NCBI GenBank assembly: GCA_051362555.1
Contig: CM120641.1
Coordinates: forward strand, 32,060,401-32,124,400
Direction: 5' to 3'
Origin: Lingula anatina
Lineage: Eukaryota > Animalia > Brachiopoda
DNA: 64,000 nucleotides
Position 1 is the stretch's first letter. Each line of letters starts with the position of its first letter. Positions 31,526-58,700 of this stretch are shown one piece after another. The notes under the pieces were generated by a model, which did no database searches, was not told the origin of the DNA, and was given only the letters and a program-made list of their open reading frames with translations. The translations under genes and the position numbers were made by a program.

Positions 31526-31865
31526 TGTGTGTGGGGGGGGGGGGGGGGCGTGTGATTAGCTGTACCGTTTTGAGTGGCTTACTAAATTTTTTGGTGATTT
31601 AAAAGCTTCATACATGTACACACACTAACATTCACACACTTATACACGCACACACACACACTCGACGACTCAACATCCGTAATAGCTTTACCTCGTGAAG
31701 CAGCTTCACATCCCCATGTGATACCTCATACACTTGCAAGGCCCCCGTCCCTCGAGGGTGATTTCCTAGAACCACGAACTTTGCCGAACACGGAATCCAC
31801 TTAGTATCAAAGAGCGTAAAATTCAATGACTTTTGAACATGTGCAATAATCTGTGGCTTCTCCAT
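27557..31865 (-). CDS. WDR92: WD repeat protein 92 / dynein axonemal assembly factor 10 (355 aa, 8 exons)
   Basis: Exons 31865-31692, 30766-30666, 30234-30104, 29657-29556, 28855-28740, 28532-28398, 28220-28123 and 27767-27557. All introns are GT-AG and the phases are consistent (1068 nt). Diagnostic peptides: [70 protein letters not shown]. Confidence 0.97.
29368..29538. mobile_element. 171-bp MITE in WDR92 intron 4
   Basis: TIR CAGGGGCGGATT / AATCCGCCCCTG with a perfect 5-bp TSD GTTCT. Confidence 0.85.
29737..29805 (-). pseudogene. Dead partial duplicate of WDR92 exon 4
   Basis: 'attatgttccat..atgaaagtgtgggactctgagcagaagaaagatc' mirrors the real 'attatgttccag|gaagcgtgaaagtgtgggaccccaggcagaagaatgatc'. 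The acceptor AG has become AT. Confidence 0.7.
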
Positions 31866-32198
31866 TACTGTTAAAATTATGAAATTTCCATCGGTTACTA
31901 GCCACGCTTTCTAGACCTTCCAATTTGTTATGCGTACTACGTCATCGGTTTAAGCTAGAAATACAAGCTGGGGTCAAGATGTGTGGTTATTTAATTCAAT
32001 TATTTTTAAGTATTAGTCTACGCATATGATATGAAATAATTGTTGAGAGTGCCCTGTATTTAAGAATTTTCTTCGTTGCTTAAAGCAATCAATAAAAAGC
32101 CCACTTTATTTGTTACCCAAAAACTGGTGACGTAGTCGTCATACGTACGACCATACATTTGCTTCTCGGACAACACACTTTTTGCATTTACTTTTAAA
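31866..32198. promoter_or_regulatory. Bidirectional promoter shared by WDR92 and NXF1
   Basis: Only 333 bp separate the divergent ATGs and the region is locally CpG-rich. It holds an inverted pair of CRE-like motifs, ACTACGTCA (31936-31944) and TGACGTAGT (32128-32136), and an X-box-like GTTACTAGCCAC at 31894-31905. Confidence 0.75.
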
Positions 32199-35100
32199 AT
32201 GTTTCAAGGAAGAGGAAGAGGTTTTAGCGTTACCACCTCCAGAGACGGACAAAGATATATTGGAGGTAAAACATTTTGATGTTCGAAATACAACGTACTT
32301 CGAGTACATTTTTTATTTCTCAGACTCGATCCACGTGATATGCCTTTCCAAATGCAAAAGTTCCAACTTGCATTATCTAAATTTATTAGAGCACTTGGTT
32401 TTATGTGATTATTTATAAATTTCTCCGATTAACACTTAGGCACTTTCTTTTTTGAGTGCTTTGGTTAGACGTGAAGTCCTGTTTCACCTGTGTGCACAGT
32501 TTACTTTGATGTCTTCCGTGTGGGACATATAATTATTACACAGAATGGATAATGTATAAACTGAAGCCACTCCAAGTATAGATAAGAGCCAAAATAGAGT
32601 GAGTAAGGACAACTAAAATTCAATGTGCCAAGTAACCCTTGTAATATTTACCAGACCTCACTGGACCATATATGGCCAGTGGAGAAAAAACAGAAAAAAG
32701 TTAAACCCTGACTCCGTTTGCAATACTGGATGCCCATTGAAATTGTTCCACCTCTTGTGATGGTTTTTACCTAATAAGATGCTGAGTGACTGACTGGCCA
32801 CATTGACTTATACATAATTTCTGTAATATGGTTATAAAGCTGCTGCTGCTGATTATGATGATAATTGTGCTGTGAGTACAATTCCAAGTTCATATTTTAT
32901 ATTTTCCTATTTTATCATATTTGTAGATCATAACAACAGAGGCTATCAAGGGGGTGGTGGAGGCTACCAGGGGCCTCAGAGGAGGGGAGGCGCCTCACAC
33001 AGGCGGGGTGGCAGAGGCTGGAGGGGAGGAAGAGGTAGAGGGCGCGGAGGTGGTGGTAAGTTGGTGTTATGATTGGGGGGGTGGAGCAGAATGCAAATAG
33101 AAAGGCAATTTGAGGGGATAGGGAAATTCAGTGAAAGTAAGGTTTTAAAAAGAATGTTCATTTTCTTCATCTAGCAAATTTGTCTGTCTTCCCTAGTGCT
33201 GTGACAGTGAGTGAAAAGATGGAACTTATTTGGTACTAATAAGGGTAAACATTTTTTTTTTTTAAATTTTGTTCATATTTATAAGATAGACTATATTTTA
33301 AGGTCCCAACCCTCTGTCTCGGCTGGAGGATGAAGAAGGGGATGTTGACATGGGCAGTGGGGGAGGCTCCTCTATGACCCAGAACAGATAGTGAGTATGC
33401 TGTTAATATATATATAAATTTTGTGTTTAAAGTATGGCAGGTATGCATTGTGACCACGTGAAGGGGCATCAATGACAGGTTGATTAGGCTCCCCACATTC
33501 CCGCTTGAGAACATCCTCAATATCAATTCTAGAACTTGCCATTGGCAAGTAATTTACATTTACTGCAGGTATGTTATTTTTACAATTTGCTTGTGATCTG
33601 TGTTTAAATAAGTACTAAAAAAATCTTGCTTTACTATTGAAATGAAGGGGCGTGTTCTTGCAGCTTATATCTCTAGTGCGATAAATCTGAGCCAAGTACT
33701 AAACCTATTTTAATTCACATGACCACACTAACACACTTGCATACACTGTATAATCTCTGAACTTTTGATCTGTTCCAGCAACCCGTATGGTGCCCGGCCT
33801 CAGTCCAGGAGAGGATTCAGACAAGGAGACAGCCGGGCCGCTATGGACAAGGAGGGGCAAAGTATGGGTCGAACTCACAGGAACACCAGTATTGATTTAA
33901 AAATCTGAATAAATTTGTACCTGTCACTACTACTGAATGTCAAAAGAAGATGTAGAATTATTGATATATTTTCGCCAATTATACTTAACTTTGTGAAGGA
34001 CTCACAGTAGTATGGAACACTTGTCATTGAGTATTTAATGCACAAATGGAGATTTAAAACCTTAGATAAATTGGTTTGAAAGACCTTAGATATAGTCAAT
34101 TTTTTTCAGGAAGCATTTATCTAGGACAACCTTTCTATATCCAATGTTATGTTATGCAAATAAATGTACAAACTTGAAGGGTTTAAGACCTGTTTAGATG
34201 TTATATGCATATTTATATTTTTTAAAATAAGTCTGGGCTTACAATGTCTGGACACTCATTTCATGCTCAGTAACAGATTTTGAAAAAAAAAAAGGATCTT
34301 TAAATTCAGATACAGGGGCTCTGCAGAGACTTGGTCTTCCAGTGAGGAATAGGGGAGATGGTGGACATCAGGGAGGATACAGAGGAGGAGGAGGGGCCAC
34401 AAGTGACTCAGGCTGGTTTAAAGTACAGGTAAATTAATATTATGATATACAGATACAGTGTTTCCCCTGGCTTTCAAGCTCTGCGAGGTGGTAGGCAATC
34501 CGCGATCCCAGCAATACTAGGGGGGTCCGGGGGCATGCCCCCCCGGAAAATTTTTTTAATCGAGATGCAATTTGGTGCATTTTAGGGTATTTAGAACTGA
34601 TTTTTTTTACATTTTATGTGGCACTGAATTGTCTTGTTTTAGATGTTTTGAGGAGTAAATTCAGTAATGACATAACAAAGGTTTGGACAAAATTTATTTT
34701 CCAGTATGCATTCACTCAGTTTAGTTCTTTTCAGTTTATAGAACATACTCTTTCAAGAAAAAAAAGTTAGTACTTTCAAAAAAAAAGTTAATACTTACAA
34801 GAAAAAGGGCTTACTACATTGAATTATTTTCAAATTGACCAAAAAGTTGATAAAATATGTTGTTCTTACCGTTTTCACATTTCTGAAAGTAACTGGTCAA
34901 TTGACTTTGCGTGTGGGAGCGCTTCATCCTAATATAAACTGCTTCAAAAAGTTCTCTCCCTTAATTGTCGTTCAGCGCAAAGCGACTCCCGCTACTAGTT
35001 ATAGGCCTACGTAGTTTGAGATGTAATTTATAATCAACAACTTCAAACACCGTTAAATGAATTCTTCGGAATTAAAGAGATGAAAATCACACTTATCATC

Positions 35101-38100
35101 AATTTTAGTTCTTCGTTTATTCATTTATATGGTTCTATTCGGTCATGGGAATTCATATTCAATGCATAGGTTTCCACGCGAAATACTGACGTGACCCAGT
35201 TTTACAACGCTACTGCTTTCACAAAAGTTACCCGTAAATCAATAGAAAATCTTCTCCAAGTTTATAAAAACAACGAAGGCCACTTTATTTGCTCCTTTTT
35301 TATCAGTGAATATTCGTAAACTATAAAAACAAACAACAGGCAGTCTGAATTTCGGAACATGAAGTGACAGAGAAAGTGTATTCTTGACACGTGATTAAAT
35401 GGTGTCAAGAACAGTTGCCTCGTTTCGCTGCGTCTCTCATACTTCACAGAACTGCGAAAACGAGGCACTTACAGGGAGATCGTAACTGCTTGTTATTTTT
35501 AGGCATACGCGCATGCGTATTTCCGTTACTGCTAAATCAAGTGCTCAGAAGCATGGGATTACGTATGTAAACAGAAAATGCCATATTTGCTTAGAAATAA
35601 ATATAATTTGCAGTTAGCATGAGTGAAAATATACTTTGTCGTTCCATTCAGCCCAACGAGGCGGTGCTTTTGACAAATTTCAGCGAGGCGCTTGCAAATT
35701 TCAGCGAGGCGGGCGCCTCGCTCATTTAAGTGCAGGGGAAACACTGCAGATATACTGCCACACAGGTAAGAAAATTAAGATCAGTTAAAGCAGGTCTTAC
35801 CTGGTAAGATTGCTATATTGCACTAAAAAAATTCCGTGAAACCTCTTCTGTTTTTTTATGAATACCAAAGGCTACCAGTCAGTTGAGAAAATTTATAAAT
35901 ATGAAATGATAGATTTCTGAGATCAACATTGGAAAAAAGGGCAACTTTTGGTCACAATTTCTTGCCATTTTTGTACTACAAGTGGTATCCATCCCTTGAA
36001 CTCTAATTGGTTAAAATTGTGGTAACAGCTGCTTGGGTTTTTTGTTTAATGCTGGTAGGAAAGGTTTGTAACTAAGACTTTTTTGTAGTATATTTTTTCT
36101 TTATTTACTGTTCTCCCCATAAGCCAATTTTGCTTTAGATCATGTCCTCCATACACAGAAACATGTTTTTGAAATATTTTTGGCACATTTTTTAAAGACC
36201 TACTCTAAATGTAGAATTCCCAATTTTGTAGGAAAGGTGAAATAGATTTAACTTTACATTTTACGCATATAAGGTTATCAGATTAATGTTTATTCATTTA
36301 AGTATAATTATGAATGAGAGAGTTAACTCTGGAGACAATATTAACAGTGTTAATACACACACACAAGGTTATTAGATTAAAGCAAATTCTTCTATGTATA
36401 ATTATGAATGAGAGAGTTAACTCTGGAAGAAATTAGTGTTGATAAGACTGCAATTGTAGTAAAAAGGTAACAGATCATTTGTTACTTTTATCCAGCTCTG
36501 AAAGCCATAAACATTGTGTATAATATGTCCTCATATTTCCAGATTCCTCATGGGAAGAAGTATGGGAAGGACGCAGTTCTGAAGGCCATAAACTCCATGT
36601 GTGATGTGCCTTTTATGCCTTATCATGTAAGCCACCAAGTAATAAAATATATTAATACCACTTTGATTAAGATGCCATTGCTCTGTTATAAACAATTATT
36701 ATACATTGCATATTTAAAAGATCATTGATAAAGTAAAGGAACATGGTATTTTGGATTTTCATACTTAGATGGCCTTTTAGTGAATTAAATTTTTTGTGTG
36801 TTAATTTAAGTGCAAATGTGCACTTGACTTCTTGTAAGCTAACAACTCAGATACTTAAATGTTTTACAGTGACAGTTTAAAGTTTTGAATATCTTGACTC
36901 TCCTAAAAACTGTTTATGATCATGAAATTGCACTTCTGTGAAATAACCCAAGGCACAGCTATGCTAATGTCAGCCACGCTAAGTTCTTGTACCAAGTAAA
37001 CATGCAATTGCCAAACAAATAATAATTAAGGTCTTACTGTTCTCTAATCAAAGTAGTTACTTTTTAATGACTTAAAGAAGAAACAATATTTTCTTAATAG
37101 ATTCAGAATAAGATTTCAATTGTTTTCCAGTATCACCATAAGGGTGGTAATATGGCAGAGTTCTTTGTCCAAGACAACAAGGCTGCAGATGCAATAAGGA
37201 GGGCATCAAGACGGTACACATTTCCTAATGGTTTTAAAGTAAGTCAGCTTTGACTGTTGACCTTTCTGGATTACTTTTGAGAGGTAATGGGGGTTCATGG
37301 TAATTTGTGGAAATTTTGTGCTGCTTTTTTCAAACAGTGGGAATTGTGTTTGTATGGTTTGTTATTAGTTCACAGCACTTTTGATGGGCATTTTATGTTT
37401 TGAAGAATGTTTTTTATGTTGTGTGTTATTTAAAATAAGTATTCTTTTATATCTCTGTTGCTCTCTTGTGGACTTATATTTCATTAATCTTGGTTTTTGT
37501 AATGTCCAGATGGTCATTCTTGTGCGGCCTTGTGGTGCGCCCAGCCTTCCAATGGATGATAATACAATTGAGAAGTTGAAGGTAAACTAAGAGCAAAAAA
37601 GAATGAAACAACACAAAAAAATGATTGAAATATAAGGTGTATAGAAGCTGTAGAGATAATAACCTTTGTTAATGAATTAATGTATATTTTGAAGCAAATG
37701 ATTGTTAATTATGCAACAAAATACCTTCATTGCCATGCTAACTTTTAACAGAGCTGAAAATAATGTTAAGGTTCAGGTATATTGTATAAAGTATGTCTGG
37801 TAGAATTTCTTTGTTAGTTATGCACTTCTGTTATTTTGTTCAATAGATAAGTATGAGTAATCACTATGATCCAGCTACCAGGTCTTTGGACCTCAGCAAC
37901 TTCTATGCTGATGAAGGTAATGGCTCAATTCAGACTCATTTCCACTTCTGACATTTTTGTCAGTGCCTTTGATATTTTCATTTGCAATTCTCTGTGTTTG
38001 TAACTGGATTTTTAATGCAAGTAAAATATTTTTTAAGGATAACCTCTTTCAAAAGTTATTGATTAAGACTTGTTTGTTTAAAGGTATTGTCTACTTATAC

Positions 38101-41100
38101 AGTGGCTTTTAAGAAATTCAAGGATATTATTTATTGAAAATTTATTTATAGACTTTCTATTTTTATCTTCTATAAGCATTGAATAAAGAAGGCATCCACC
38201 TGGCTTTAAACAAAGTCAATGTAATGGTCAATGTATTAAAGATCATTGGTGAAAATATTCCTGAGGTAAGTAAGGGCATCTAGTGCATATAAATGTGAAG
38301 CTGTAGTCTGAATTGAAGTAAAATTTTTTAAAGAATTCAAATATATAATATTCTTGTATTTGGACACTCAGCATAGACATACCTGTTTTTTTTCTAGCTT
38401 AACTGGTCATGTATAGAGTTGCAAAAAGAATGAATGTAAGCATGTGCTATGCATTTGTACATACACATATGTGCCCCCATATACAGGTATAGGAAGTACT
38501 TCTATTAATGGCAATCTGTTTTGCTGCTCAGATTTAAGATTGGTTGAAATGCAAACAATTTACAGTGGTACATGTAAACATCAGACTTAGCCATTTAAAT
38601 CTTACCAGCAACAATGACTGTATTAATGTATTTTTCAGGTTGTTTCAGTCAGTTTCTCCAACAACAGACTGTACACTTGTGATAATTTAGTGGAACTGTC
38701 AGAAAAAGGACCCAACATAAAGAAACTAGATCTTAGTCATAATCAGGTTTGAACTTTTAAAAGAATAGTTAAAATTTTATTTTGAAGAATAACTGATGTG
38801 AGAGATTACAAATATGATGTGAACTCAAATTAATAAATTTAAAATTAGTTTGTATTATTATGATAAGTATGGTCTAGCTTTAAATTGCTCTCCCAACTGG
38901 ACTTCTTTGATTCAGTCTGTATTATTTTCATTGGATTTTTTTGTCAAATAAATGCAAAATAAATCTTTCATTGATTTTATATACAAGTTTCTAATTTTGA
39001 ATAATTTAATTTTCCTCTGTTAAACAGTTGAAAGGAGAACAAGAGCTGGACAAAATCAAGAAATTGAAGTTGGAAGAGCTGGTTTTGGAAGGCAATCCTT
39101 TTGTTATGCATCAGAAAGACCAATCTGCTTATGTCAGGTAATGTTTGGTTGGGGCAGTGCCCCACTGGGCTGAGTTGGTACATGGCCTTAACTGGACTTT
39201 GGTCAAGTTGGTCATGGTAGATTTAAAACAGTGAGGCTGATGAGGCTTAAAATTCAATATTTCTGCTGGTCAAGAACTTGGGAAGTGGTAAAAATGAAAG
39301 GGGTTGAAACACTGCCAAAGCTGTCCTAAAAATATGGCTTTTAATGTCATCTCCTTTTTAGGAAATTTCGATAGGCTGCTTATGCTTCATAAAATGAAAT
39401 AAACTGAAGTTTGAAAGTTGCAAGCAAAATTGTGATGTGCCTCAAAATTGTACTCAAATAAGTCGTGGTAAAAATGATTGAGCCTTGGTTGGTGAAAGTG
39501 GCTGCTTGAATGGCAATAAAGTATGGGAGCTTGTGTTTTTTAGGGTGTAATACACCCCTACATCAAGTGGAATATTTACCACTGTGAACTTCAACCTCTC
39601 TCTCTCTCACACGCCCGCGCACACACATGAGAAGATAACACATACCTCTTGTTGTTTTTAATTCAGCTACATGCCGTCATTTAAATCTTCTGTAAGTTGT
39701 GAATGTTTCATAATATATTGTGACAGATGACCTATCAGTTGTATGATCTTATGGTCTTAAATATATATTTTGTGGTTTAAGTACTTACCTCTTCCAGATT
39801 GTCTGAATAAGGTTTTGAACAAATACTGTTGGCAACTGAAAACATTTAAAGAAATATTTGATCCCCCATCCTTTCACCAAAGGCAATTATTTGCCATTTT
39901 CTCAGACATATTCTTGTATGTCTTTCATTATCTTATTTTTCATGCCTTTACCAGATGTTTTTTCCAGATAGGATTTTTCCCATCTATATTTCATCATTCT
40001 TAACACATTTCATAAACCTTTTCTTTAAAATAAAATTCATCATTTACCTTTAATCCTTTTTGCTGAAGAGAAGAAATTTCCACAAAAATACCCAACCCAA
40101 GCTGTTGGAATGTGAATTATAATGTTTACAAACAAATAACTTATATTTTATGGTAAATTACAATTAGACAATTTTTTTTCACCTGTACAAACTCTCGCGT
40201 CATCAGCACTGCATTTTTAGATGGGAATTCTGTATGCTGCTGGTCTTCCATTTGCATCCTCTTATTCCATTTCTGCCTTTGGAATATCAGGTGCCTGTTC
40301 TGGAAGATCTAGAACAGCTACTGTCCTTGAACACAATAACTTTTTGTGCCTGTGTAGTATATGACTATTTTGTCAAGGAGTCAGCCATGTTCCAAATGTA
40401 TTGAAAAAAATCAATGATCTTTTTTCCCCCGAAGGATGTACATGACATAAATACTGTTACAGTGTTTGAAGTATTTTGGTGCACTCCTAATGTAATTCCT
40501 GATAATCTGATATCATTAAAATGACACCCCCATCAACAGAAGATGTGCCCAAATGGGAGACATGCTGCCACCTAGTGGGGGTTAGTGTTACTAACATTCT
40601 AAGAGATGTATCACCTGAGGTGAACTGCAGGTTTCTGCAGATTGAACATGTGCCTTTGAACTATGTCTGTCATTATGTGTTATGTTTTGATAGTTATGGT
40701 TGCCCTTTTATTTAGGTCATTTGGAGTTGCTTTTCTGCAGTTGTTTAATAACTGATATTTGTTTTTTATCCACTTCTTATTTCAAAGTAATGCTGTTGTT
40801 TCAAAGTTTTGTTTTTTAGTCATCACAAATTTTGTGAAATGTTATTTGACTTTTTTGTTTTGTTTTAGCTGAATTTCAACTCAATAACTTTTTGAAATAG
40901 TGTGCAGGGTTTTTGATATTGTAAGATGTTTATTTCTGTTGTTTGAAATATAACTTAGTAATGTAGTGAATTCATCCTACATTTGTTTCTGTTAAATATT
41001 TATACTGTTGCAGTATTTTTTTGATGTGAAATATTTTTCAGTCATAACTTTCAGTTGCTGTCTTACAGTACTTGATACAAAGTTAGGACTGACAAATGTG

Positions 41101-44100
41101 GTTAAAGAAGGTAAGATCTCTCTCAGAGAGGCGACCTAAGACAAAACTAACCATCACACTGAAACAATATGGCAACCAGATGACAGTGAAAGAGCACTTG
41201 TGGTTTGGAAACAAGACTCGTTTTTCTGTTAGCTCTTGAAAATCTAACAAGAGAGTTGGCTGTTTTTTATGCTGTCCCCATGATGATATGGGGTTTAGAA
41301 GTCAGGGATGAGATTGATTCTTTATTCCCAGTTTATAGTTGACTTCATAATGGGAAGTAAAATTGGGAATGTTCCTTGTTGTTAATACATATATTGTGTC
41401 TCTGACCTTAATGTTATTGATTGTAATTTTTTTTTGCTGATGGGCATTGTTATCCCTTGAACTGTACTCTATTTTTGAATACAAAATGAATTGAGTTTTG
41501 AGAATTTTTAAAATGTTTTTCACTAATAATAACTTGGGCTTTTTGGAATTGGCTGATTGCTTTTCAAAATATTGTTATTTAAAGGCCAGGGGCTCTTTGT
41601 TTTACCATGAAAATGATATGATATTTATATATCACAGATTGTTTATGGACAATATAGAATTCCTGAATGTTGTTAAAGATGACTTGTACAATGAACACTT
41701 TCCTGGTTGCGTTAAACTTCTGTCAGCTCCACTTGCTTCTTACTTCCTAAATGAAACATGTTCCATCATATATGTACGCAGCAGAACTGTGTGGCTTTCT
41801 GTACTCTGCAATATTATTTACAATCACCATGTATTATCGCCATAATAATCATTCCTCCTTTCGTGGTTGCTTCATTTGTTCTGCTTAGGACATCTTAATC
41901 CTCGTGATTACCATTTCTACATTGTTGTTTACCTTGTCTTCAAAAATGGCTTTTGCCAAAAGAATTTGTGAGGTTTACAAACTGCCTGAAGTCTATGTGA
42001 TCAGAATAAAGTGATCTTCATATAGTGAAGGCAGAAGTATTCCTAATTCATTCTCATTGTCTCATAAAGTTTGAAGTCTCTGTGATAGAGCAAAATAAGA
42101 ATGAATCTTCACATAGTATGCTCAGATCTCATTTGTCATATAGTATTAATTCATTTTCTATCCATATCCAAACATTGCAGCAAAACTTTTCACTCTTTGA
42201 TTTGATATCTAAAGCACCTCTTTTGTGTTTTTAAGTGACTTGACTGCCTGTCCTTTATTTCTTCTTTACATATGTGGCAGTTAGGTTTATTTCTAGTCTT
42301 GTTCCTCAAAAGTTGGTAGCAGGGACCTTTTTGTTGCATTGACTGAAGGAGGGGAATATAATTATAGAAAAATCCATTGTAGATATGCTTAATGAATGTG
42401 ACTTGGTATCATTTTTAATAAAAAGAATTATTCACAACAAAAGGTATGTGTTTTCTTCTAATTCTTCCTTATCTTGGTAAGCTTCTTTGGTTTTGAACCT
42501 TTTTCCTAATTGTATTGGATCAGGTTTTAAAGGAGTTTGGTTGGAAATGTGAAGGAGTGTGTATGTGTACAGGTTGTAAGTGTTTTCTGGTGTATCACTT
42601 TAACTTACTTCATACAGGTTATGGCAAAGTGAGGAAAACTCCCTTACTGTTTCCAATTTATTGAAAAAATACTCAAAATCAATCTTGATTAACACCATGC
42701 CTTTCTGAAGTAGACTATGTAGTACACAATAATTATTTATATTTAGCATGGTGCATAATTTGAAGAAACAAAATTGGAATAATTGATAGTTCATTAGTTT
42801 TATAAGGAGTTGTGTGGAGAGATTTAGTTTGGCAGTACTTGGAAGCAGATGGTGAGATTTGAAGTCCATGCACTTGAGGAGAGCAGTGGTACTGTATTTT
42901 CACCCTGTTAAATGTCATGAAGATTTCACTTGAGAAAATATATTAGGGTGTATATGGATAAAGTATCCATTTTGTGATAAATGAAAGAGTTGCAGTTTAC
43001 TGCTTCATGAAATATTGGCAGAATACCAACTCTACTTTGACTCAGGTTGCATGTTTTTTCTCGACACCTATGCTCTGTGTTAGCCAGTCAGATGGAGTAA
43101 CTGCTTCTGATATCATGTGCTATCCACTTAAATTCTGTCTATAGCATGACTTAATGGGTGAACATGACAGGATGCTATATGATTATCAACCTCTACCAAG
43201 TTGGTGTTCAGAAAAAAAAGTTTTTTTAGCACTGTCCATTTTTTCAAGCTTTGAGTATAAGTATGTCTTGCATATCCTCATATTGCCTGAGAGTTATTTC
43301 AGGGCCACAGACTCTTTAAGTAATTGTGACATTACTTGTTCACCATGGTGTTTCAGCGCTGTTCGTAAGAGGTTCCCTAAGGTGTTAAAGTTGGTAAGTA
43401 GACAGAGTTTGAGACTTTAAATTTGTCACAATGAGTGAATTGCTCACCTTCCAAATGAAAGATTTTTTGACAGCATCAAACATCATTTTGAATTTAGTTG
43501 TTTTAAAGGAAGGAAGGAAAAAAGTATATCATTTAAAAATTAACAGATTCTTTTGATTTTATATTTAAGGAACAAATTAAGTTTTAATTTTCATAATTTT
43601 AATATATTGTATTTAGATAAATAAGTGACATACAGTAAGTTTGGTATTCTCCAGGACGGCAAAGACTTACCACCTCCCATAGGTTTTGACCTGGAATCCC
43701 CTACTGACCTACCCACCAAGCAAGGCAGTTATTTCATGAATGAGGAAGTGAAAAATTTGGTCGTGAGGTTCTTAGAACAGTAAGTGGCTGTGATTTTGGA
43801 CATTATAACCTTGAATTCTGTGTTAGGACCTTTTAGACAAAGAAGTATCCTTTTTGATGAGGTCTTTGTGTCTCATGTTCCAGCTTGCATGGTCTCAGTT
43901 TGAAGTGGTCAGCAGGTCTCTCTTTGAGTCTGCATCTTGTCTCACTATTTCCAAAACCATAACAACAGTTGATGTATTTGGCAGATTTAACTTTTCAGCA
44001 GATGCTATTTGTAGCTTTAGAGATAAGAGTATATGTATTATATTTATTTTAAACATTTTGGTGATTTTCTGAAGGAAGCAACTGAGTTGTCTGTATTTTA

Positions 44101-47100
44101 TTCCAGATATTTTAGCATTTATGACAGTGATGACAGACAAGGACTGCTGGAGGCATACCACAATGAAGTAAGTTGTCCTTGTTTACCCTGAGTCTTTCTG
44201 TTGTGAAGTCATGAGATGTTGTAAATGTAACATTATGATGTTCAAAGTAGTATAAAGGAAAATTTTGTGCCAAAACCAATTTCCTTGGGAAAAAAATAAT
44301 TTTCTCTTAATTTCAAATCTTTGCTAGACCTTTCCCTGCACTTAGATCTGATTTATTGTTCCAATTTTACATAAATGATTGAATTTTTAATCAATCATGA
44401 TTTATTCAAGCTGACATCCTTCTTCCTGGCATTTCATGATTTGCCCAGAAACACCATGACCTTGTTTTCATTTTACAGTATGAAAATTAACGCTGAGTTC
44501 TGTTTCTTGTATATAATATTATATCGACAGAATTCATTTATGACATGAAATCAATGCCAGGCTTAGCCTTGCAAAAATCTGAAAGTTGGTTTGGCCCCTG
44601 GCTATTTAAGTATTGCATTTTCAACCACTTTATTAAACTGACTAGTGGAAAGTTCTTTATTGTTTTAGATTAATTTTTCTTTGTCTGAAGATTTCATCCT
44701 CATACTAGTAAAAATAGTAGTTTGAAAAGGCTAAAAGGTTAACAATGCATGCTGCATTATTGTTATTTAAAGACAAGTTGGTTTCTCTGTGACTTAACTA
44801 ATAGGATTATAAAGGAAAATTTATAATAGAAGGTATATTTTCATAGTTCATGAAATTGTTTGTAGATGTTTTTATTTAATTTTTTTTATTCAGGCAACCT
44901 TTTCAGTGAATATTGCACAAAACTTGACACTGGTAACAAAGTAAGTACATATGAGCATAGGAAGTGACCTAGTAAACAAATGAAAATAATTTATTTGGCT
45001 AATACATACCTAAAATATTGGTTTCACCAGACATTGTTTTCTGTCTGATCTCTAAAAAATGAAATCTAAAAACATCAAAGTTAGAGATGTGAAAATTCAA
45101 TGATAAATTAACGAATGTGTTAAAAGGGCAATTGAATTAAAAATTAGAGATAAAATGAGCAACAGCTGAAGGATAAAAGCTTTTACTGCCTTTGAAATGT
45201 TGCTCATGTTGCTAGGTAAAAATTTAAACAGTAAACGCAGGGTGATATAAGTCACTCATTGTGTTGTCTTATCTCTTCTCCACTCTCTCCACATAAATGC
45301 TCTTGATGGTAAAGCATGACCAATCATCTTACACTTAAGTATTGATGATGTTGTTCATTTTCCTTTTATCTTCCCCCAGTTGCACAACCAAACCATGTAA
45401 TTATTGCAAATTTTAAATGCTCTTCACTGTAGATCTGTAAAAGTTTAAAGTTTAGTAAATTACTTGGTGCTATAGCTTTCTTAGGAAATAAATTTTCTGT
45501 GGTTAAAATTTCAAGATAAGAGCAGAATCAGTGTATATTTGTCTTTGTAATTTAGGTATTCCGTTGTTTATCTGTAAAGTCTGTTGATTGGTAGAAAATA
45601 TCCTGGAAATATGTACGTACATGTATGAATTAAGACATGAAATGATTGCTGTTATTTTCCTTTGAAAAAAAAAACTGTGTAATTGTCCTTTTGATTCATT
45701 CAGTTGTATAGTTGATACATACAGTTGATATATACAGTTGTATAGTTGATAAGGTGGTTGAATTGTGGATAAAATTTATGTTTTAGTTATCCAAAATACC
45801 ACGACTACCTCTCAGAGAGCAGAAATCTTGTGAAGGTCAAAGATCCAGGTGAGTTTTAGCATTAGCATTGATGAGCTGATGTGCCCACTTTTTCATATTA
45901 CCAGAAGATAAGTATTGGGAGGTATTTACATGTTTCAGAACTGATTTATTTTCCACCTTTGTCCAATAGGTACTGAGAAAAACAGTCATCATCTAAATTG
46001 AACAATTTTATTTTTGTCAAGGGAATTAGGTTTTTAGAGATTATGCAGCTAGTATTACTTTCTGTGAAAGTGTGCAAATTTCATAGGGTTTAAGGTACAG
46101 TTAGATGATGAACTTTTTTGTAAAGTAAAGATTGAAAGCACTTGAATGTATCGTCTTCATTGTCTGTTTGATAGTCAAAAGAAACAAGTGCCTGAAACAA
46201 GGAAAACTGAATGTGGTGGCAGCACTGTGCAACCTCCCCAAGACATCCCATGATGCAAACTCTTTTGTTCTAGATGTTACAAATGCTACGGTAAGCAGTT
46301 CAAGTGATACGATTGCCATTTTTCTACTTTCCTAGGCTTTTAGGTTTACAAATCCTTTATTGATTAAAAAAGCTACTTTTTTGTAATCAGTAATTCTGTT
46401 TTTCTGTAACACAGATTAAACCTAATAGAATAGTAAATTATTGAGCAAAATAAACATTTTTATTGTGGCCAGAACAAAATGTTCCCCATATGTTTATGAT
46501 ATATTCTCTTACATTGTAGCAACATCTTTTGAGCTTCATTGTCTCTGGGATATTCAAAGAGAGTGAGTATGAACAAAAAAATAATAACATGCACTTTTAA
46601 ATATATACATGCATCATGGAGTACAGGAACAAAACATCTAGCATGTCATGAGAATTATCTTTAGTGTGCACTTGGCTTTATTATCCCTAAGCTGCTCAAG
46701 GAAGCATGTCAGACAATTTAGTTGATTACAGTGATTGCACTTTAGTGAGAATCCCTTCAGAGTTGGATCCAACCAGCTGGTATGATGTCTAAAGCTGAAT
46801 GGGTCCTAAATTTGCCCTCGATTTCCAACCCAAAATATTGATGAGTAATTATCAGTAAGAACATTATTCAGACTTGAAGTAAGAGACAGACGATGTCTAA
46901 GTCTGCCCCAGATTTCCCCTATGTATTTCTCAGATAATTATCAATTATAACAAACTGCATTTCTTCCAGGTGACACCAAGTCAGACAAGCCTCCTGTCAG
47001 ATACTTTTCCAGACATTTTGTTACTGTTCCACAAGGCTCTGGGTAAGTAGGTGCATGAAGAGGACTGGCTCATTGAACAGTATCTTTGTATATATGTGGA

Positions 47101-50100
47101 ATTGTCTGCCTGTATATGGCTTAATGGAATAGGCCATTAAAAAGGTAAAGCAGTTCTTCAACATCTAAAAAGCATGATGTGTGTGTTTGTGTGCACGTCT
47201 ATGTTCATATTTGACATTATGAGGTTGGCCTCTCTTAGGGGTATAGTGATTCTGTATAAAAATCTACAAATAAGGTATGATAATATGTGATGGTTTGTAA
47301 ATTGATATGGTATATGTGTGTGTTTTGTGCTTTTGTTTGATTGTCCTTGGATGTGTTTGTGTGCTCATGTATTTGTATTTGTGTGTTGTGTGGTTTTGTG
47401 CTAGTGTAATTTGTATTTGAGTGTGCTGTGTGTCCATGTTTATGTTTATATAAGTATGGTATGTGGTCTCTTGTTTATATGTTGTATGGCCTTGTATGTG
47501 TTTGTATCTGTGCTTTTATAGTGGAACTGTTATGAGCTTGAATGTTCATGCATCTGCATGTGTGTTGTTTGTGGAATATTGAGGGGAAGTATTGCTCTGT
47601 TTGGTTTTAACATGGTTAATAGCTTGCAATGTTGTAGCACCTTTACTAGCATCATTTTAATTGTACCACCTGTTTATTTTAAATTTTTTATTTTTCTAAA
47701 GACGAGAAATAAACACTGCTGATTTCAGACACCTACGTGTACTCCTCCAGCTGCCAGGGTATCACATCAATCTTATACACAGGCAGTACAAAGTTATGAA
47801 ACGTGATTTGCAGTCAGGCCACAAATCTTATACCAGTACTTTTTGTTATATTTCAGCATTGTGATCATCAATGAGATGTTGACAGTTACAAATGCAACCC
47901 CAAAACAAGTGCAGGTGAGCATTTCATCAGAAATACTATCAGTTATTTTTACCTCACCAAGACAAAGTCGAGGGAGCTATTGTTTATTGCATGTAATTTG
48001 GCAATGATCCATAAGTGCCAAACTATTATTTTGTTTAAGCTTAAGTTTACCTGGTGACTAAATATGGTGAAAATTCGGGTTGAATTCACAAATCGGCATA
48101 ATTCATTTTCACAAAAGTTATGGTGCACTTTTTATTCTCAACCGGGTTAAACCCTCAAATAAAATAGTGTGATTTAACATAATTATTTTACCCAGTAAAA
48201 TTATTGTAATCTCTTTGTATGTGTTTTTTAAACTAAGTTATAAGTCAGTATGGTATTTTGTACTTTTTCAGTCTTCATTCAAGCAAGTGACCCCTACCCC
48301 CAGTCCTAGTCCAGTCCCAGGGAGCTCACCAGTGGTCAACAGTCCACTGGCCCCTGATGTCCAGAGGGCAATGGTCAAATCTTTCTCCCAGCAGTCTGGA
48401 ATGAATGAGGAGTGGTCACAGAAGTAAGTACATAGATGGTGGACTCTGACAAGTGTGTGACAGCAGTGGATGTGGTAGATGTGATAGATGGGACAGTTAC
48501 GCAGGTTGTGCAATTGTGGTAATGATGACTTTTTGACGGTTGTGCCACTGTACTAGATGTAGCTTTGTGCTGATTTTGTGATTGTTGTAGATTTTCTTTC
48601 TGGTTGTGCCACTGTGCTGCATGTGACTGTGATGGCTGTTGTACAATACTGGATGAAATATGTTGTCCATTTGATAGTGATAGTGGTTATTTGTGTTATT
48701 TGTCTTGAAAAATCGGTCAGTAAACACGATGAGTATGTGCCACTGGGTCTTTGATGGTAAATAGTCTTTTGGTGAGCTATTGATTACATTTTGGGATGTT
48801 TATAACTTGTATGGTTTCACACTGCAGCTGTTATTTGGATACCCTTTCTTTGTGTTAAGTGATGATAAATATTATAAATATTAGATATGTTTTTGATATA
48901 AGATGAGGACAAGTAGTTTGATACCAAGGTCTGAACCAAGTGGAGTTCCCTTATTCATTTGTGATATAAAACATTAAGTAAGAATCAAGAGATAGCATAT
49001 CATATCATATCCATCGGCAGATATTTGTATATATTTTTCTTACTAACTCATTGGTTTGAGCTGTCAGTGAGTTGTCAACTGCCTGCCATCCTCATGTCAC
49101 TGAGTTGTCATCAGATGTCATTGTACTTGCCACACACCTGCCAAGCTGATGGCAGGTTCTTTTGACAGTTGTCATTGTGTGAAGGGTGCCTGTCACTGCT
49201 GCCAGTCTGTGTAACTGTATTATATACCCTCTCAATAATAGGCTCCATCGCTGACTTCTCCCCCCCCTTTTTTATCACAGTTCGTGTTATTGAGTAATTT
49301 AGCTAAAACATTGGTTTGGATTTAATTAAAAAGACAATGCATGACTACCCTGTAGGTGAATTTATTGGCATTTATCCTAGTCAAAAATAACGTAATCAGA
49401 GTTTGAGTTCAGTAAATTACTCAGTGCCAGTATACAGTTCCACTATATAGATACCAGTTATTCTGTACAGGCTGGATAATAAGGTGTATAATATGCTGCA
49501 TGCCAAACTGCCACTGCTGTCATTTCCAGGCCAGCATATTGATAATTAATGAACAGTTGTGAGATACTGGTACATTATGTATGAAGGAAGATGAGAATAG
49601 CATATTATTTATCTCTTTTTAGGTAGGTGATGGTGGGGGGGGGGGGGGGGGGGTTGGTTAAAGAAACTGAGTTTATGTAGAAATATTTTATTGATACATG
49701 CTCTCTTTTATGTCTGTGGATAATAGCAATTAATTTTGGCTACAGGTTGTCAGTCTGAACTTAAAAAAATATTTTCAATGTGAAGTTTGTTTACATAAAA
49801 AGGTAATTATGTTGTCATTGACTGCCTCGTCGGGTCAAGTTTACAAATTACAGAAATTTGGAGAAGGTGGTTTAACCCCCTTATTTTCAGTTGGTGGAAT
49901 AATAATTTTTTTTTTCATGAGGATTTGAGTTGTGTAAGAAACTGGTTGCATTATGATGAGAAAGCTCCTCAAGGTGCATCCCCCCTTTGTGTATACTTGC
50001 CTTCATTAGTGATGTGTTTGACAGCTATTGGTTCAGACTGGTGAAAGGAAATAATGAAAATAGGGCCTTGTGTATGTGTTAATATATCGCCTGACTGGCT

Positions 50101-51871
50101 GGGTCTATAATTAAATGCATGCTATTATTAATGAAAAATAACACATCATTCATGCCTGAAAAATGTTTTTATCAGTATGCAGACTAGTAATTGAAAGAGT
50201 GCTTATAGCCAGTTAATGTTGTGTTTTTATGTTAGTTTCATTCATTTATCAATTTTGAACAAGGGTGGGTAGGGTGTGTGCAAAATGCAGACTTGTTGCT
50301 GACTATTGGCGTCTGATAAGCAAATTTACTAATTCATTTTTGAAATCTGACAGAGACGATTACTGTGGTTGTAATCAAGCTGCTATACAAGAAGCAAATT
50401 TTGAAATATTATAGCAAAAAGCAATGGGGGTACTCGGTAAAACCCAAAATAGGAAAGGGATGTCAGGTAGACTTGCCATTTGTTTGAAACTAATAATTAC
50501 ACAAGGTATGAGCAGTTAAGTAAGAAATTGTGGATGTTCATTCTCCCACTATTGTTATTAAAGTCACTGATCAAGTTATCCTTTGTTTAATGGAATAAAA
50601 GGAGCTCATAACTCCTTAACTAAAAAAAATAAACCAAACCTTGCTACCAGATTATAGTTCTCACTCTAGTCATCAACCATTGACAGTTCTCATGATTTAT
50701 TTTTAAGTAAAATTGCCAAGTCAGAAAATGTTCACTATTTCAATTAACAAATCTGTGAAAATGACAATTTATGCTTGACCACTCTTATATGCACAAACAA
50801 GCAGGGTGGTGCATAAAGCAACAAAAAGGAGACTGTGCTCTAAAAGTGTTTAATTTTATTGTAATAATATAAAGATAAGTAATTCACATAAAAGAAGAAG
50901 GCAAAAAAGCTATTTTGACAAATTCAGGCCTTCAATATATGTCCACACCCCTTAAGGAACAGCAATAATTGGACCCTGGGCTGTTCCTGGGGTGGGATGA
51001 TTCTTCTCTATTTTTCCAAATGCATTATTATTTCTGTAAAAAGGAGATAAATACAGATGTATTATCTTGTTGTCTATGTTTATTAGACCCAAGCAGTGGC
51101 ATAGATATCCATAAGGCTGGTTTCCCTTGGGACAATCAACACTTGATAATGTGGTTAAATGTGGGGATATGCGATGGCTACCCATAAATAACAATTATAT
51201 AATATATTTTGTTACTTTCCAGGTGCCTTGATCAGAATGACTGGGATTTTCAGAAGTCTGCCAAGGTTTTCACAGAGTTACAGGTAAGCAGAATCATTGT
51301 AAGACCAGACAAAGTTGATAAGTCCGATAAGTAGGTTAAAGAGCAGTGACTCTATAAACAGGTCTTTAGAATAAATTCATTGTTTTTATTAATAATAATA
51401 ATTATTATTATTATATTTCATATTTTATTTAAGTTAGGTGGAAATGCTAAAATCTCAGCTTCATATAATGTAGAGCATATAAACGACATTTAAGTCATTC
51501 CTATGTCAGTTATGAGTTTGTCCCAATTACCAATTGAAACCAGTACCTAATGCTTTTTTTTCCATCTGAAAAAATAAGAGAAGCTTATTTCCTCAAAATT
51601 AGGGCTGGACAAGTCGCATGCTGGTTAACCAACTTCAGTTATTCATTTAGTGTAGCCTAATGTAGAGAACTTCAAGTTAAAGTAATGAAAAGAGTCTAAA
51701 ATCCTTAAAAAATATGTTCTGCAATTAAATACAAAGTTAAAAGGATAATCTTAAAGTATGATTTTTCAGATATGTAGCAAAATTAAAAATATTTATTTAA
51801 AAAATGTTTTCATTTGAAAATTTCAGCAAAAAGGAGCCATCCCTGCAGAGGCATACGTAAAACCACAGTGA
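32199..51871 (+). CDS. NXF1: Nuclear RNA export factor 1 (TAP/Mex67 family), 668 aa, 24 coding exons
   Basis: Exons 32199-32265, 32927-33055, 33303-33390, 33779-33861, 34310-34428, 36543-36626, 37131-37238, 37510-37581, 37847-37916, 38177-38265, 38639-38746, 39028-39137, 43357-43393, 43655-43779, 44107-44167, 44894-44940, 45787-45848, 46175-46290, 46520-46562, 46970-47042, 47857-47914, 48272-48423, 51223-51283 and 51827-51871 (2007 nt, all GT-AG, phases consistent). Domains: RGG-rich N-terminus with RYNPY, RRM ([12 protein letters not shown]), LRR ([10 protein letters not shown]), [25 protein letters not shown] linker, NTF2-like ([14 protein letters not shown]; LPKTSHD) and UBA/TAP-C ([23 protein letters not shown]). 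Confidence 0.96.
34456..35746. mobile_element. 1.29-kb non-autonomous hAT-like element in NXF1 intron 5
   Basis: Perfect 14-bp TIR CAGTGTTTCCCCTG / CAGGGGAAACACTG with a 6-bp TSD CAGATA. Contains a subterminal GGGGGTCCGGGGGCATGCCCCCCCGG palindrome. Confidence 0.85.
40563..40578 (-). promoter_or_regulatory. CTCF-like binding motif
   Basis: TGCTGCCACCTAGTGG reads CCACTAGGTGGCAGCA on the minus strand, a close match to the CTCF core consensus. Confidence 0.5.
41097..41156 (+). promoter_or_regulatory. CTE-like (constitutive transport element) RNA stem-loop
   Basis: UGUGGUU-AAAGA-AGGU-AAGA-UCUCUC-UCA-GAGAGG-CG-ACCU-AAGACA-AAACUAACCAUCA. It contains the CTE core ACCUAAGACA (41134-41143) opposite AAAGAAGGUAAGA, in sense orientation inside the NXF1 cassette intron. 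Confidence 0.75.
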
Positions 51872-55743: not shown

Positions 55744-58700
55744 TTTATTTCTTATATAGCGCATTCCATTTTTTACATTTCAATGCACTTTACAAATAAT
55801 TAAAAAAAGTCTAAAAATAACAATACTAAAATACTTTAACATTTACTGATAAAATTAATTAAAGAAAGCAGAGAAAACTTATTGATATAATAATATATAT
55901 AATTGATTTATACATAAAGCATGTAACTCTGAATAGACCTGCTGCACTATACCTTTGTCCTTGGGCTTACTTCCCAGCACTTTCAAGCAAGGAGACACAC
56001 TGGCTGAGGCTCTCTCTCCTCCTGGCTGTGGGTCCTTGGCTGTACCCCACAGGATCAGTTCATACCACAGCAGTTTACCTGAAAATACAATCTTATATAT
56101 ACATGTATTACAATCATGGCACACATAACAGAAATAATCTGGTATTGACATTACGTAAAGTCCTTACTATAAAATAAGGGGTGTTTTGTGATTTTTTTTT
56201 CCATCAACCACAACACCTTTTGGGTAACATTTTACTGTTCATTCAATTTTAAATCAGTGCTTATTTCCAGAAAAATATACAATTGTCTGGACATTGCCTG
56301 CAGGACAAAATATATTCCCTCAAGTCCTGCATACCCTGAGCTTGTACATGTAATAGATGCAATGTATGTGAGCTTTTTCATTTTCAAATGTATCCATTTG
56401 TTATTCCATATCTATTCATTTGGCATTTAAGGTGGAAATTTCAGAATGAAGAAGATTGTCTTTATTGGATCTGAATCTCTGGCCATATTTTAAAATTATA
56501 AATACTGTACAGCATTTAATAAGAGAAACATCTCATTCTTCATATTCTCATTCCATCTGATTTGAATTCTTAATGCTTAGCAACAAAGCCTCCTTAAAGT
56601 TATATTTTATATCAATATGACCTTTACCTGGACTGGTATTGTCAATGGACAGTGTCCAGTTTCCTGTTGGATCTTCCCCCCAGGACTGGACAGTAGTGAA
56701 CACCCAGTTCAAGGTGCCTGCCCGGTGGTCATTGGGTCTTGCTTCCAACAATCGTGACACTGTCCCCTGGGGAGAGGTCAGGATGACCCTGAGACCACTG
56801 AAGTCATCTGTTGTCAAGGCAACCCTCAACTGGACATGCTCCAGGCTGTTAACCTCTTCTGGGTTACCATGACAACCTGTTATATTCCGTTGGAGGGTGA
56901 GTGGGGCTCCACTGACAAAATCCCTAGAAAGATTTTTTTAAAATAGCAGTGCACGTAAAACTTTCCTTTTGCCACCTTCAATATGCATTTTCTATTATTA
57001 ACTGGACATCACTCCATCACTCTTTATCCTACAAACATTTTCAGCACTCTTTTCCTTACTAAGTTTGAGTGGACTGTTACACTATCAATTTTATTTCATG
57101 AAAAATAGGTATGTTGGCAGAGAAAGTATTTTATATTTAAAATGATCACTTTACATATACACAGCAGAAATCCCACTGGGCATTTTCCATTTTTTTTTTA
57201 CCAAGGTCTCATGGAAACACACTGTGGTACACACTTAACATCCAACCCAGACAGCAGTGCCCATCATTTTTGAAAATTTGGGAGGCACTACATACCTACC
57301 TTTTACCAGGGTCACATATTAATTTTTCACTAGATATTCGCAGACATATTTCTTTGGCTAATTCATATCACAATTCTGTGCTGAAGAAAAGTGCACATAA
57401 TTCATCTGTGGCCCTGGTAGAGGGTAGGCACTACCCATCATTAAGAACACTGTCAGCCCTGATCTAGGAACACTTGTCAGTTGGAGCATTTCAATTTGAA
57501 ATTACTTATTCACTTTATTTTAACTGGGCCCACTTGCCACTCCTGTGGTGTGTCTGTCAACAAATTATTGGGCAACAGTCAGCTACACTATAACAAATTA
57601 CTCCGCTAAATTTTGCACGCTGTACCACACTTTCTTATCACATCTACCATGTTTATGTCTAACCTGACTAGATACCCTCCGGGGCCGTAGCGATAGTCCG
57701 AAGGTTCAATAGTCCGAAGGTTCATTGGTCTGAATGTTCACTATAGAACCTTCGGACCAATGAACCCTTGATTAAAAAATCGATGAAAATGTTACCACTT
57801 TTTCGGACCAATGAACCTTCGGACTATCGAGACGCCCCCTACCCTCCAACCAGTTACTGAACCACATAGTCTGTCACTAGTTACTATACTTACTCTCCAA
57901 CTGGCTGTATATTACTGGTACACATCTGCTGTTGTCCCACTGCTGCAGAATTCCAGGTCTTTGCTATGCTTATCATCTTTGTGGCATCCAGCAAACCAAA
58001 ACCAAACATGTGGCTCACTACATTACATGAGAACAAGTGATGTGCCAACACAAAACATTACATGTAATACAAAATTATAATTTTAATTTATCAAGACACT
58101 GCATGACGTCTTATTTTTCAAAACACATTTTGAACTTTTCTTTCTTGAACATAAAAAATGGATCTTGTATGACAAATTGGAAATTTCTTTTGATATATGT
58201 AGTATGTACAAGTACCATGGAATCCAGCTCCATTGGTCTGCCAGTCGCCACTACATGCTGCCTCTGGGTTGGAAGATCGGGCTAAAACATGCTGCACATC
58301 TCTCCACGTAAGACTGGGACTGAAAAAGATGTGTATTATTCCAAATCCAACACTTATCATTTTACCAACCAAGTTCACATGATAGTACTCAAAACTGTCA
58401 CACATAATTAATAGTTTTTTTAATATTGTCTGCAATGAATATCAAGAACGAAACCAAACTTACATTTTGCAATTTTCATTTCAGAAATTAAGCTATTTCA
58501 CTGCAACAGCACATTTTAATTTCTTGTCATTTACTTCAACAAAAGCATCACTATCTACAATGTCAAAGTGAACTCACTTGCAGCCCAGGTTCTGAATATG
58601 GGGTATACATTAATGTGACAAAACATGCAAATATGGGTCAACTTGGCTCCAAGCAATCACACAAAGTGTGATGGCAGTTGGATATGGTGGCTGGATTCAT

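What the first reader, a model, noticed from the sequence alone, without database searches (positions are those of the whole stretch)
41097..41156. CTE-like RNA export element inside the cassette intron of an apparently invertebrate NXF1 gene
Seen: a compact hairpin in which AGGU (41109-41112) pairs with ACCU (41134-41137). It is capped by UCUCUC/GAGAGG and closed by UGGUUA/UAACCA, or by UU/AA in an alternative register, leaving AAAGA and AAGACA as an internal loop. Established: the NXF1-binding loop of the type-D retrovirus (MPMV/SRV) CTE is CC-AA(U/A)GAC-GGGU-AA opposite ACCU-AAGACA-GG. Vertebrate NXF1 carries a CTE in this same intron (intron 10), which lets the intron-retaining mRNA be exported and make a short NXF1. 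Here the 10-nt core is exact, GGUAAGA matches, and the closing CC/GG looks compensated as UU/AA; the 5' loop strand is 1 nt shorter. Inference: I know of intronic NXF1 CTEs only in vertebrates and not in flies or nematodes. If this genome is invertebrate, the NXF1-CTE feedback loop would be much older than thought, and the viral element may derive from an ancient host element.
Basis: partly seen in the sequence, partly recalled or inferred. Interest (0 to 1): 0.92.

Follow-up and report, generated by a model that had tools for sequence, protein, structure and literature searches.

The report
Brachiopod NXF1 intron export element
A brachiopod's main mRNA-export gene carries, inside an intron that some of its transcripts keep, a diverged copy of the small RNA hairpin known from the vertebrate gene and from monkey retroviruses, so this likely self-export signal would date back at least to the common ancestor of protostomes and vertebrates.

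Summary
The hairpin is real. It lies in a 4,219-nt intron of nxf1 from a Lingula brachiopod (exon 14 is 41/41 aa identical to L. anatina NXF1), at the same codon as human intron 10. The motif pair has an expected chance count of about 1e-4 in this intron. A second, unplaced nxf1 gene from outside the jawed vertebrates (metagenome contig L191) carries a fully canonical CTE in the same intron. The two fold alike: of 13 pairs, 5 change on both sides, 3 on one side, none break. RNA reads cover this intron at 0.03, 0.46 and 0.32 of exon depth in three runs, while control introns are near zero. Against: one loop strand is 5 nt instead of 6, only 6 of 20 human CTE-contact residues are identical in Lingula, folding energy is unremarkable, and binding and export are untested. 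Verdict: a diverged CTE homolog, the first protostome case I could find. Host origin of the viral element is already published. This scan earlier noted a sea-urchin case on other DNA (unchecked).

The parts
32199..51871 (+). nxf1 gene of a Lingula brachiopod, 24 coding exons (RRM, LRR, NTF2-like, UBA domains)
   Evidence: Open frame of 654 aa through exon 23 with AG/GT ends; last exon read from sequence; junctions of exons 6-19 seen in RNA; Pfam domains of the matching protein P0002. Exons 1-5 and 20-24 were not checked against RNA.
39028..39137 (+). Exon 12, 110 nt, end of the LRR domain; its donor is weak (rank 19 of 23)
39138..43356 (+). Intron 12 (4,219 nt), ortholog of vertebrate intron 10; covered by RNA reads; in-frame stop in its first codons gives a 376-aa product if translated
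   Evidence: position
41102..41145 (+). CTE-like core: UU/AA closing pairs, 5-nt and 6-nt loop strands, AGGU/ACCU helix, G-C pair, 6-bp apical stem
41138..41143 (+). AAGACA, the loop strand that binds NXF1 in known CTEs
   Evidence: role from PMC4330393 and PMC4174252 passages
41108..41116 (+). Donor-like site (AAG|GUAAGA), best of 276 GT sites in the intron and stronger than the true donor; paired in the hairpin; no junction listed there
41098..41154 (+). Outer helix of the MFE fold (alternative closing register)
43357..43393 (+). Exon 13, 37 nt

Best explanation
The hairpin is a diverged homolog of the vertebrate NXF1 intron-10 constitutive transport element, sitting in the orthologous and partly unspliced intron of brachiopod nxf1, where it likely binds the NXF1 protein and likely lets the intron-keeping mRNA leave the nucleus, which would yield a 376-residue RRM-LRR-only protein or feed back on NXF1 levels. 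Shown: position, sequence, shared fold with compensatory changes, intron coverage in RNA, stop codon. Inferred from vertebrate and viral work: binding, export, translation, feedback. Homology alone I put at about 0.9; the confidence given is for homology plus NXF1-dependent export.
For: Same intron position as human: sNxf1 shares 338 residues with full-length NXF1 (356 minus 18, PMC5170612), and human residue 338 aligns with the last full codon of exon 12 (counted by hand). Chance count 1.4e-4 in this intron. L191, a second nxf1 gene with matching exon sizes and 45% identity over 214 aa, has a canonical CTE 911 nt into the same intron and also a stop right after the exon. Window versus L191: 13 pairs, 5 unchanged, 3 one-sided, 5 two-sided, 0 broken; chance that the 8 pairs outside the search pattern all pair is 7.5e-4. 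Eight-row alignment: 88.5% of cells paired versus 31-59% when slid, 7 of 12 pairs with two-sided change. 0 of 155 background motif hits meet all four structural features. BLASTN of the two introns finds no significant match (best E 0.28), so conservation is not intron-wide. Intron-to-exon depth 0.03, 0.46, 0.32; control intron bins 0-0.11; sense-strand in the two stranded runs.
Against: The 5' loop strand is 5 nt, missing the C present in L191 and the viral units, in a loop reported unchanged across most mammals. Two A-U closing pairs are weak and not the MFE register. Only 6 of 20 human CTE-contact residues are identical in Lingula, against 13 in zebrafish, 15 in catshark and 7 in L191; R233, R158 and R307 are replaced. 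This is below the overall identity of about 45%. Only two nxf1 loci were compared. The structure tested was taken from the window's own fold and the invariant columns were fixed by the search pattern. RNA counts are low (118, 47 and 151 reads), there are three control bins from much shorter introns, and total RNA cannot tell exported from nuclear-detained transcripts.
Confidence: 0.62

Rival explanations
1. The element is a conserved homolog but works mainly as a splicing switch: its donor-like site acts as a decoy or as the end of a hidden stop-containing exon, holding the intron in or sending the RNA to decay, perhaps toggled by NXF1 binding, without promoting export.
For: The site scores 9.7 versus 6.6 for the true donor and is first of 276 GT sites. 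Three acceptor-like sites lie 42-97 nt upstream, two giving in-frame stops. The same site is kept in L191 and noted as conserved in vertebrates. The retained form has a stop directly after exon 12, adding 1 residue rather than the 18 in human.
Against: No junction to or from 41110 is listed in three RNA runs (threshold 3 reads, low depth). AAGACA and the helix are conserved beyond what a donor needs. PMC4338338 reports no use of this site in NXF1 genes. The donor matrix was trained on only 22 sites.
Confidence: 0.2
2. It is an inherited CTE that is decaying in Lingula: once functional, now too changed in loop and protein surface to be used.
For: Shortened loop strand, weak closing pairs, 6 of 20 contact residues identical.
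Against: All 8 changed pairs still pair, which drift over hundreds of millions of years would not keep while the rest of the intron lost all similarity. The intron is still seen unspliced.
Confidence: 0.1
3. It is a chance match, or an independent insertion from a retroelement, unrelated by descent to the vertebrate element.
For: The loose motif pair has about 2,100 background hits in the viral collection. Retroelement-like loci carry single units with the same fold, some with AGGU. Folding z is only -1.4.
Against: Same intron and same strand in two unrelated nxf1 genes and in vertebrates; chance count 1.4e-4; compensated stems; no long ORF in the intron (longest 116 aa).
Confidence: 0.06

Closest known systems
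Cellular CTE in intron 10 of vertebrate NXF1 (Wang, Rekosh and Hammarskjold 2015, PMC4338338; Li et al. 2016, PMC5170612; Li et al. 2006, recalled)
   Same: Same gene, same intron position, single loop, AAGACA strand, adjacent donor-like site, similar spacing (21 nt between the helix strands; 22 inferred from the paper's loop numbering 32-37 and 68-73), intron retention with an early stop.
   Different: Protostome host; 5-nt instead of 6-nt opposite strand; UU/AA closing; near the middle of the intron (1,971 of 4,219 nt); 1 new residue instead of 18; contact residues diverged; function untested. The vertebrate sequences are in figures that I could not see, so I compared with L191 and viral units instead.
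Type-D retroviral CTE (MPMV, SRV); represented by the primers in PMC4330393 and by loci L127-L129, whose identity as type-D retroviruses is my inference
   Same: ACCUAAGACA exact; GGUAA on the opposite strand; same four-pair helix with A-U in place of G-U.
   Different: The viral element has two units in tandem that form a two-loop rod; the window has one unit, in a host intron.
Intron-containing transcript of Drosophila sbr/nxf1 (PMC8151460 passage; Mamon and colleagues 2013-2014 on the 110-nt/intron/37-nt cassette, recalled, not seen)
   Same: An nxf1 intron-keeping transcript in a protostome; the 110 and 37 nt exon frame matches the recalled cassette.
   Different: No CTE was found in fly or worm by BLAST; here a recognisable CTE is present.

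Membership tests
Vertebrate-type NXF1 intronic CTE | Lies in the NXF1 intron that follows the LRR-ending exon (human intron 10), sense strand | tested here: met
Vertebrate-type NXF1 intronic CTE | AAGACA as the 3' strand of an internal loop | tested here: met
   motif
Vertebrate-type NXF1 intronic CTE | Four-pair (G/A)GGU/ACCU helix capped by an apical hairpin of about 22 nt | tested here: met
Vertebrate-type NXF1 intronic CTE | Canonical 6-nt opposite loop strand with CC/GG closing | tested here: not met
   5-nt strand and UU/AA in the window; met exactly in L191. Hence filed as a variant, not a canonical member.
Vertebrate-type NXF1 intronic CTE | 5' splice-site-like sequence next to the loop | tested here: met
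   feature
Vertebrate-type NXF1 intronic CTE | Structure kept by compensatory change across orthologs | tested here: met
   only two nxf1 loci, the other six rows are retroviral, retroelement-like or unplaced
Vertebrate-type NXF1 intronic CTE | Host intron retained in RNA | tested here: met
   low counts, nuclear versus cytoplasmic unknown
Vertebrate-type NXF1 intronic CTE | Protein surface that contacts the CTE is conserved | tested here: inconclusive
   6 of 20 identical, R249 to K (residue list)
Vertebrate-type NXF1 intronic CTE | Direct NXF1 binding, export activity and a short protein | not testable with these tools
   needs binding, reporter and proteomic assays
Type-D retroviral CTE | Two tandem units in a retroviral genome | tested here: not met
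   one unit in the window; two in L127 and L128

The most novel reading that the evidence does not exclude
The NXF1-CTE self-export circuit is an ancestral feature of bilaterian animals, and possibly older if the unplaced L191 host is a non-bilaterian. It was kept as a 45-nt intronic RNA across more than 550 million years, lost or changed beyond recognition in flies and nematodes, and captured late by retroviruses. In Lingula the RNA loop and the protein surface have diverged together, giving a natural pair for working out how NXF1 reads RNA directly.
Probability: 0.6. Interest if true: 0.78.

Novelty: new variant of a known kind. Interest (0 to 1): 0.64.

Why it matters
The papers I could read place the NXF1 CTE in mammals, zebrafish and coelacanth and describe the mechanism as vertebrate. 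A protostome copy moves it to the bilaterian ancestor (split more than 550 million years ago, recalled), a rare depth for a non-coding intronic element, and removes a vertebrate retroviral insertion as its source. BLASTN misses the match between the two invertebrate copies, so published absences in fly, worm and bird should be redone with structure-aware searches. The shortened loop and changed protein surface test which contacts in the human NXF1-CTE structure are essential.

Tried and rejected
Rfam: nothing for the window region, but Rfam also missed the viral CTE in L128 and the L191 element, so the blank is uninformative. No whole genome is held, so paralogs and genome-wide motif counts were not checked. 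The run search listed no RNA holder by index; RNA runs came by species label. Prokaryote-genome scan: 8 hits, none with NXF similarity. Metagenome scan: 1 of 66 hits had nxf1 exons. Naming the L191 host failed: no scoring homolog; 4 hits, all unnamed. Free-form MAFFT alignments A2 and A4 were out of register and dropped; A2 also held one mis-addressed row. DNA run X10 did not cover the element, so there is no polymorphism test. Absence of spliced reads across this intron in X14 and X17 was not used as evidence: X17 has no depth on exon 12 and the 37-nt exon is hard to lay. Look-alike searches of earlier findings by sequence and place gave nothing. PMC1170349 is not held. A vertebrate origin of the window was rejected.
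Full report
Observation. The described bases are at the stated places. The upper hairpin (AGGU/ACCU, one G-C pair, a 6-bp stem and a 3-nt loop) appears in the MFE and centroid of 41097-41156 and persists in 151 nt of context. Stability is ordinary (z -1.41; 16 of 200 shuffles). The AAAGA/AAGACA loop needs the UU/AA register, whereas the MFE closes further out. The case therefore rests on sequence and position, not energy. ACCTAAGACA is unique in the window. The motif pair has 0.01 expected matches in the window and 1.4e-4 in this intron under an order-3 Markov model.

Gene and organism. Hand-set exons from 32199 give an open frame of 654 aa through exon 23, each intron GT..AG. RNA reads confirm the junctions of exons 6-19. 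Exon 14 is 41/41 aa identical to two proteins named Lingula anatina NXF1, a brachiopod and protostome. Outside the N-terminus, P0002 differs from the window translation at a few residues only (compared by eye). The element lies 1,971 nt into the 4,219-nt intron between a 110-nt and a 37-nt exon. Human short NXF1 has 356 residues of which 18 are intron-encoded (PMC5170612, passages), so the human intron follows residue 338. Counting by hand on the alignment, residue 338 matches the last full codon of exon 12. The intron is the positional ortholog. Read-through stops after one new residue, at 376 aa.

RNA. Three RNA runs from three studies and one DNA run were laid on 36400-46600; about 6, 6 and 25% of the RNA runs were read, giving 118, 47 and 151 reads. 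Over 10 bins wholly inside the intron (one bin with a dinucleotide repeat left out), mean depth was 0.32, 0.77 and 2.42, with 4, 7 and 10 of 10 bins covered. That is 0.03, 0.46 and 0.32 of estimated exon depth. Three bins wholly inside other introns had 0, 0, 0; 0, 0, 0; and 0, 0.11, 0. In the two stranded runs the intronic reads are mostly sense. X11 has 15 spliced reads across the intron. X17 is unstranded and from a diverged population, but DNA contigs that share its variants do lay on two of the three control bins, so these are mappable. Retention thus varies by sample. Limits: low counts, shorter control introns, no fractionation.

A second nxf1 locus. A tighter pattern gave 9 viral hits and 66 metagenome hits. 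Three viral hits (L127-L129, contigs of 8.1-8.6 kb) carry units that agree with the SRV-1 primers in PMC4330393 (passages); two tandem units were seen in L127 and L128. I take them for type-D retroviruses by inference. One of the 66 metagenome loci, L191, has nxf1 exons of 84, 105, 78, 70, 89, 108 and 110 nt (window: 84, 108, 72, 70, 89, 108, 110), a stop right after the 110-nt exon, and a canonical element 911 nt into the following intron on the same strand. Its protein is 45% identical to Lingula over 214 aa. It falls outside the starred jawed-vertebrate and insect clades in a 29-row tree and is otherwise unresolved. Nesting with bony fish is rejected (p-AU 2e-7, 16 rows, LG+G4). No sponge, ctenophore, tunicate or jawless-fish rows were available, so those remain open, and the host could not be named.

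Covariation. Window and L191 fold to the same architecture. Of 13 pairs, 5 are unchanged, 3 change on one side, 5 on both sides (both closing pairs and three apical pairs), and none break; the chance that the 8 pairs outside the search pattern all pair is 7.5e-4. On an eight-row alignment (two nxf1 rows, two viral, four retroelement-like or unplaced), 88.5% of cells pair against 75.8% shuffled (0 of 500) and 31-59% slid; 7 of 12 pairs have a two-sided change (11 of 500). The structure came from the window's fold and the invariant columns from the pattern, so these figures lean in favour. As background, 0 of 115 distinct loose viral hits (from 120 loci) and 0 of 40 distinct tight hits met all four features: helix, apical energy of -5 or lower, two closing pairs, loop strand. 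Before that count I removed L191, L127-L129 and 17 near-canonical loci chosen by eye. Fourteen of the 17 form one BLASTN-linked family with pol- and env-like frames (motif names recalled). Three (L137, L140, L168) are unlinked, and L168 would have passed the test. BLASTN of the two introns finds nothing better than E 0.28 and misses the element itself.

Against the simple reading. The 5' loop strand is one base short in a loop reported invariant in most mammals (PMC4338338). Of 20 human residues listed as CTE contacts (PMC4330390, passages), Lingula has 6 identical, zebrafish 13, catshark 15, L191 7 and the other 18 invertebrates 3-10 (23 rows). L191 pairs a canonical RNA with an equally diverged surface, and many contacts are to the backbone, so low identity need not mean no binding, but binding is unshown. 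The paired AG|GUAAGA is the best of 276 GT sites in the intron and outscores the true donor, which ranks 19 of 23. A decoy or hidden-exon role is the main rival; no such junction was listed.

Mechanism. Most likely: the weak donor leaves intron 12 unspliced in some cells (shown as coverage); the hairpin recruits NXF1/NXT1 through the AAGACA loop (inferred from PMC4330393 and PMC4174252 passages); the RNA is exported and makes a 376-aa RRM-LRR protein or lowers full-length output (inferred from PMC4338338, PMC5170612, PMC5602073).

Literature. Of PMC4338338 I read parts 1-2 of 7, the Discussion and search passages, but not figures or supplements; the figures hold the vertebrate sequences. It reports CTEs in over 30 mammals, zebrafish and coelacanth, none by BLAST in birds, reptiles, worm or fly, and argues host origin. 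For PMC5170612, PMC4330393, PMC4330390, PMC4174252, PMC8151460, PMC7551171 and PMC5602073 I saw passages only. Ten searches listed no paper describing an invertebrate NXF1 CTE; I saw at most the top 20 of each listing, and searches were dominated by off-topic hits. The library lacks most subscription journals and the Mamon cassette-intron papers (recalled), which may bear on novelty. This scan earlier reported a sea-urchin case (e1-7810872), an unchecked AI note that I did not use as evidence.

Verdict. A real, conserved, diverged CTE homolog in a protostome nxf1 intron. It works like a CTE with probability about 0.6 and is not filed as a canonical member because the opposite loop strand fails the test. 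New variant of a known kind; interest 0.64.

Noticed in passing
L191:4359-4405 (+), nxf1 exons at L191:1180-3455: An unplaced animal-type nxf1 gene outside jawed vertebrates and insects with a fully canonical CTE in the same intron. If the host is a non-bilaterian, this is the older and stronger case.
   Followed up: partly
L131, L132, L143, L145, L148, L153, L166, L170, L174, L175, L185, L187, L192, L193: A family of retroelement-like loci with pol- and env-like frames carrying NXF1-type CTE units; 7 of these 14 show a second unit about 71 nt downstream, the rest one unit or a contig end.
   Followed up: partly
L137:710-758 (+), L140:906-950 (+), L168:2352-2396 (-): Three unlinked single CTE-like units with no NXF exons; L140 and L168 fold with the same architecture as the window's element.
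   Followed up: partly
window 45848 to 46520: In run X17, 4 reads continue from exon 17 into letters matching the start of exon 19, suggesting skipping of the 116-nt exon 18 (frameshifting), against 7 reads for the normal junction (tables 5 and 7).
   Followed up: no
window 43145-43393: Database protein P0001 (315 aa, 'NXF1-like') begins in the 3' end of this intron and runs into exon 13; an annotation artefact or a trace of intron-keeping transcripts.
   Followed up: no
window 14860-17430 and 22800-25370 (+): Two tandem single-exon paralogs of 856 aa with several hydrophobic stretches; the first copy has no Pfam match.
   Followed up: partly
window 56548-60382 (-): Exons of a proprotein convertase gene (P-domain PF01483).
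   Followed up: partly
window 31632-31910 (-): First exon of a gene head-to-head with nxf1, under 300 nt from its start codon; resembles WDR92 (recalled), no Pfam hit on this piece.
   Followed up: no
window 34456-35746: A 1.3-kb insert in nxf1 intron 5 bounded by 14-nt inverted repeats, probably a non-autonomous DNA transposon (seen by eye).
   Followed up: no
window 6798-7218 and 9394-9816: Two related repeat-rich stretches open in several frames, likely one repeat family.
   Followed up: no
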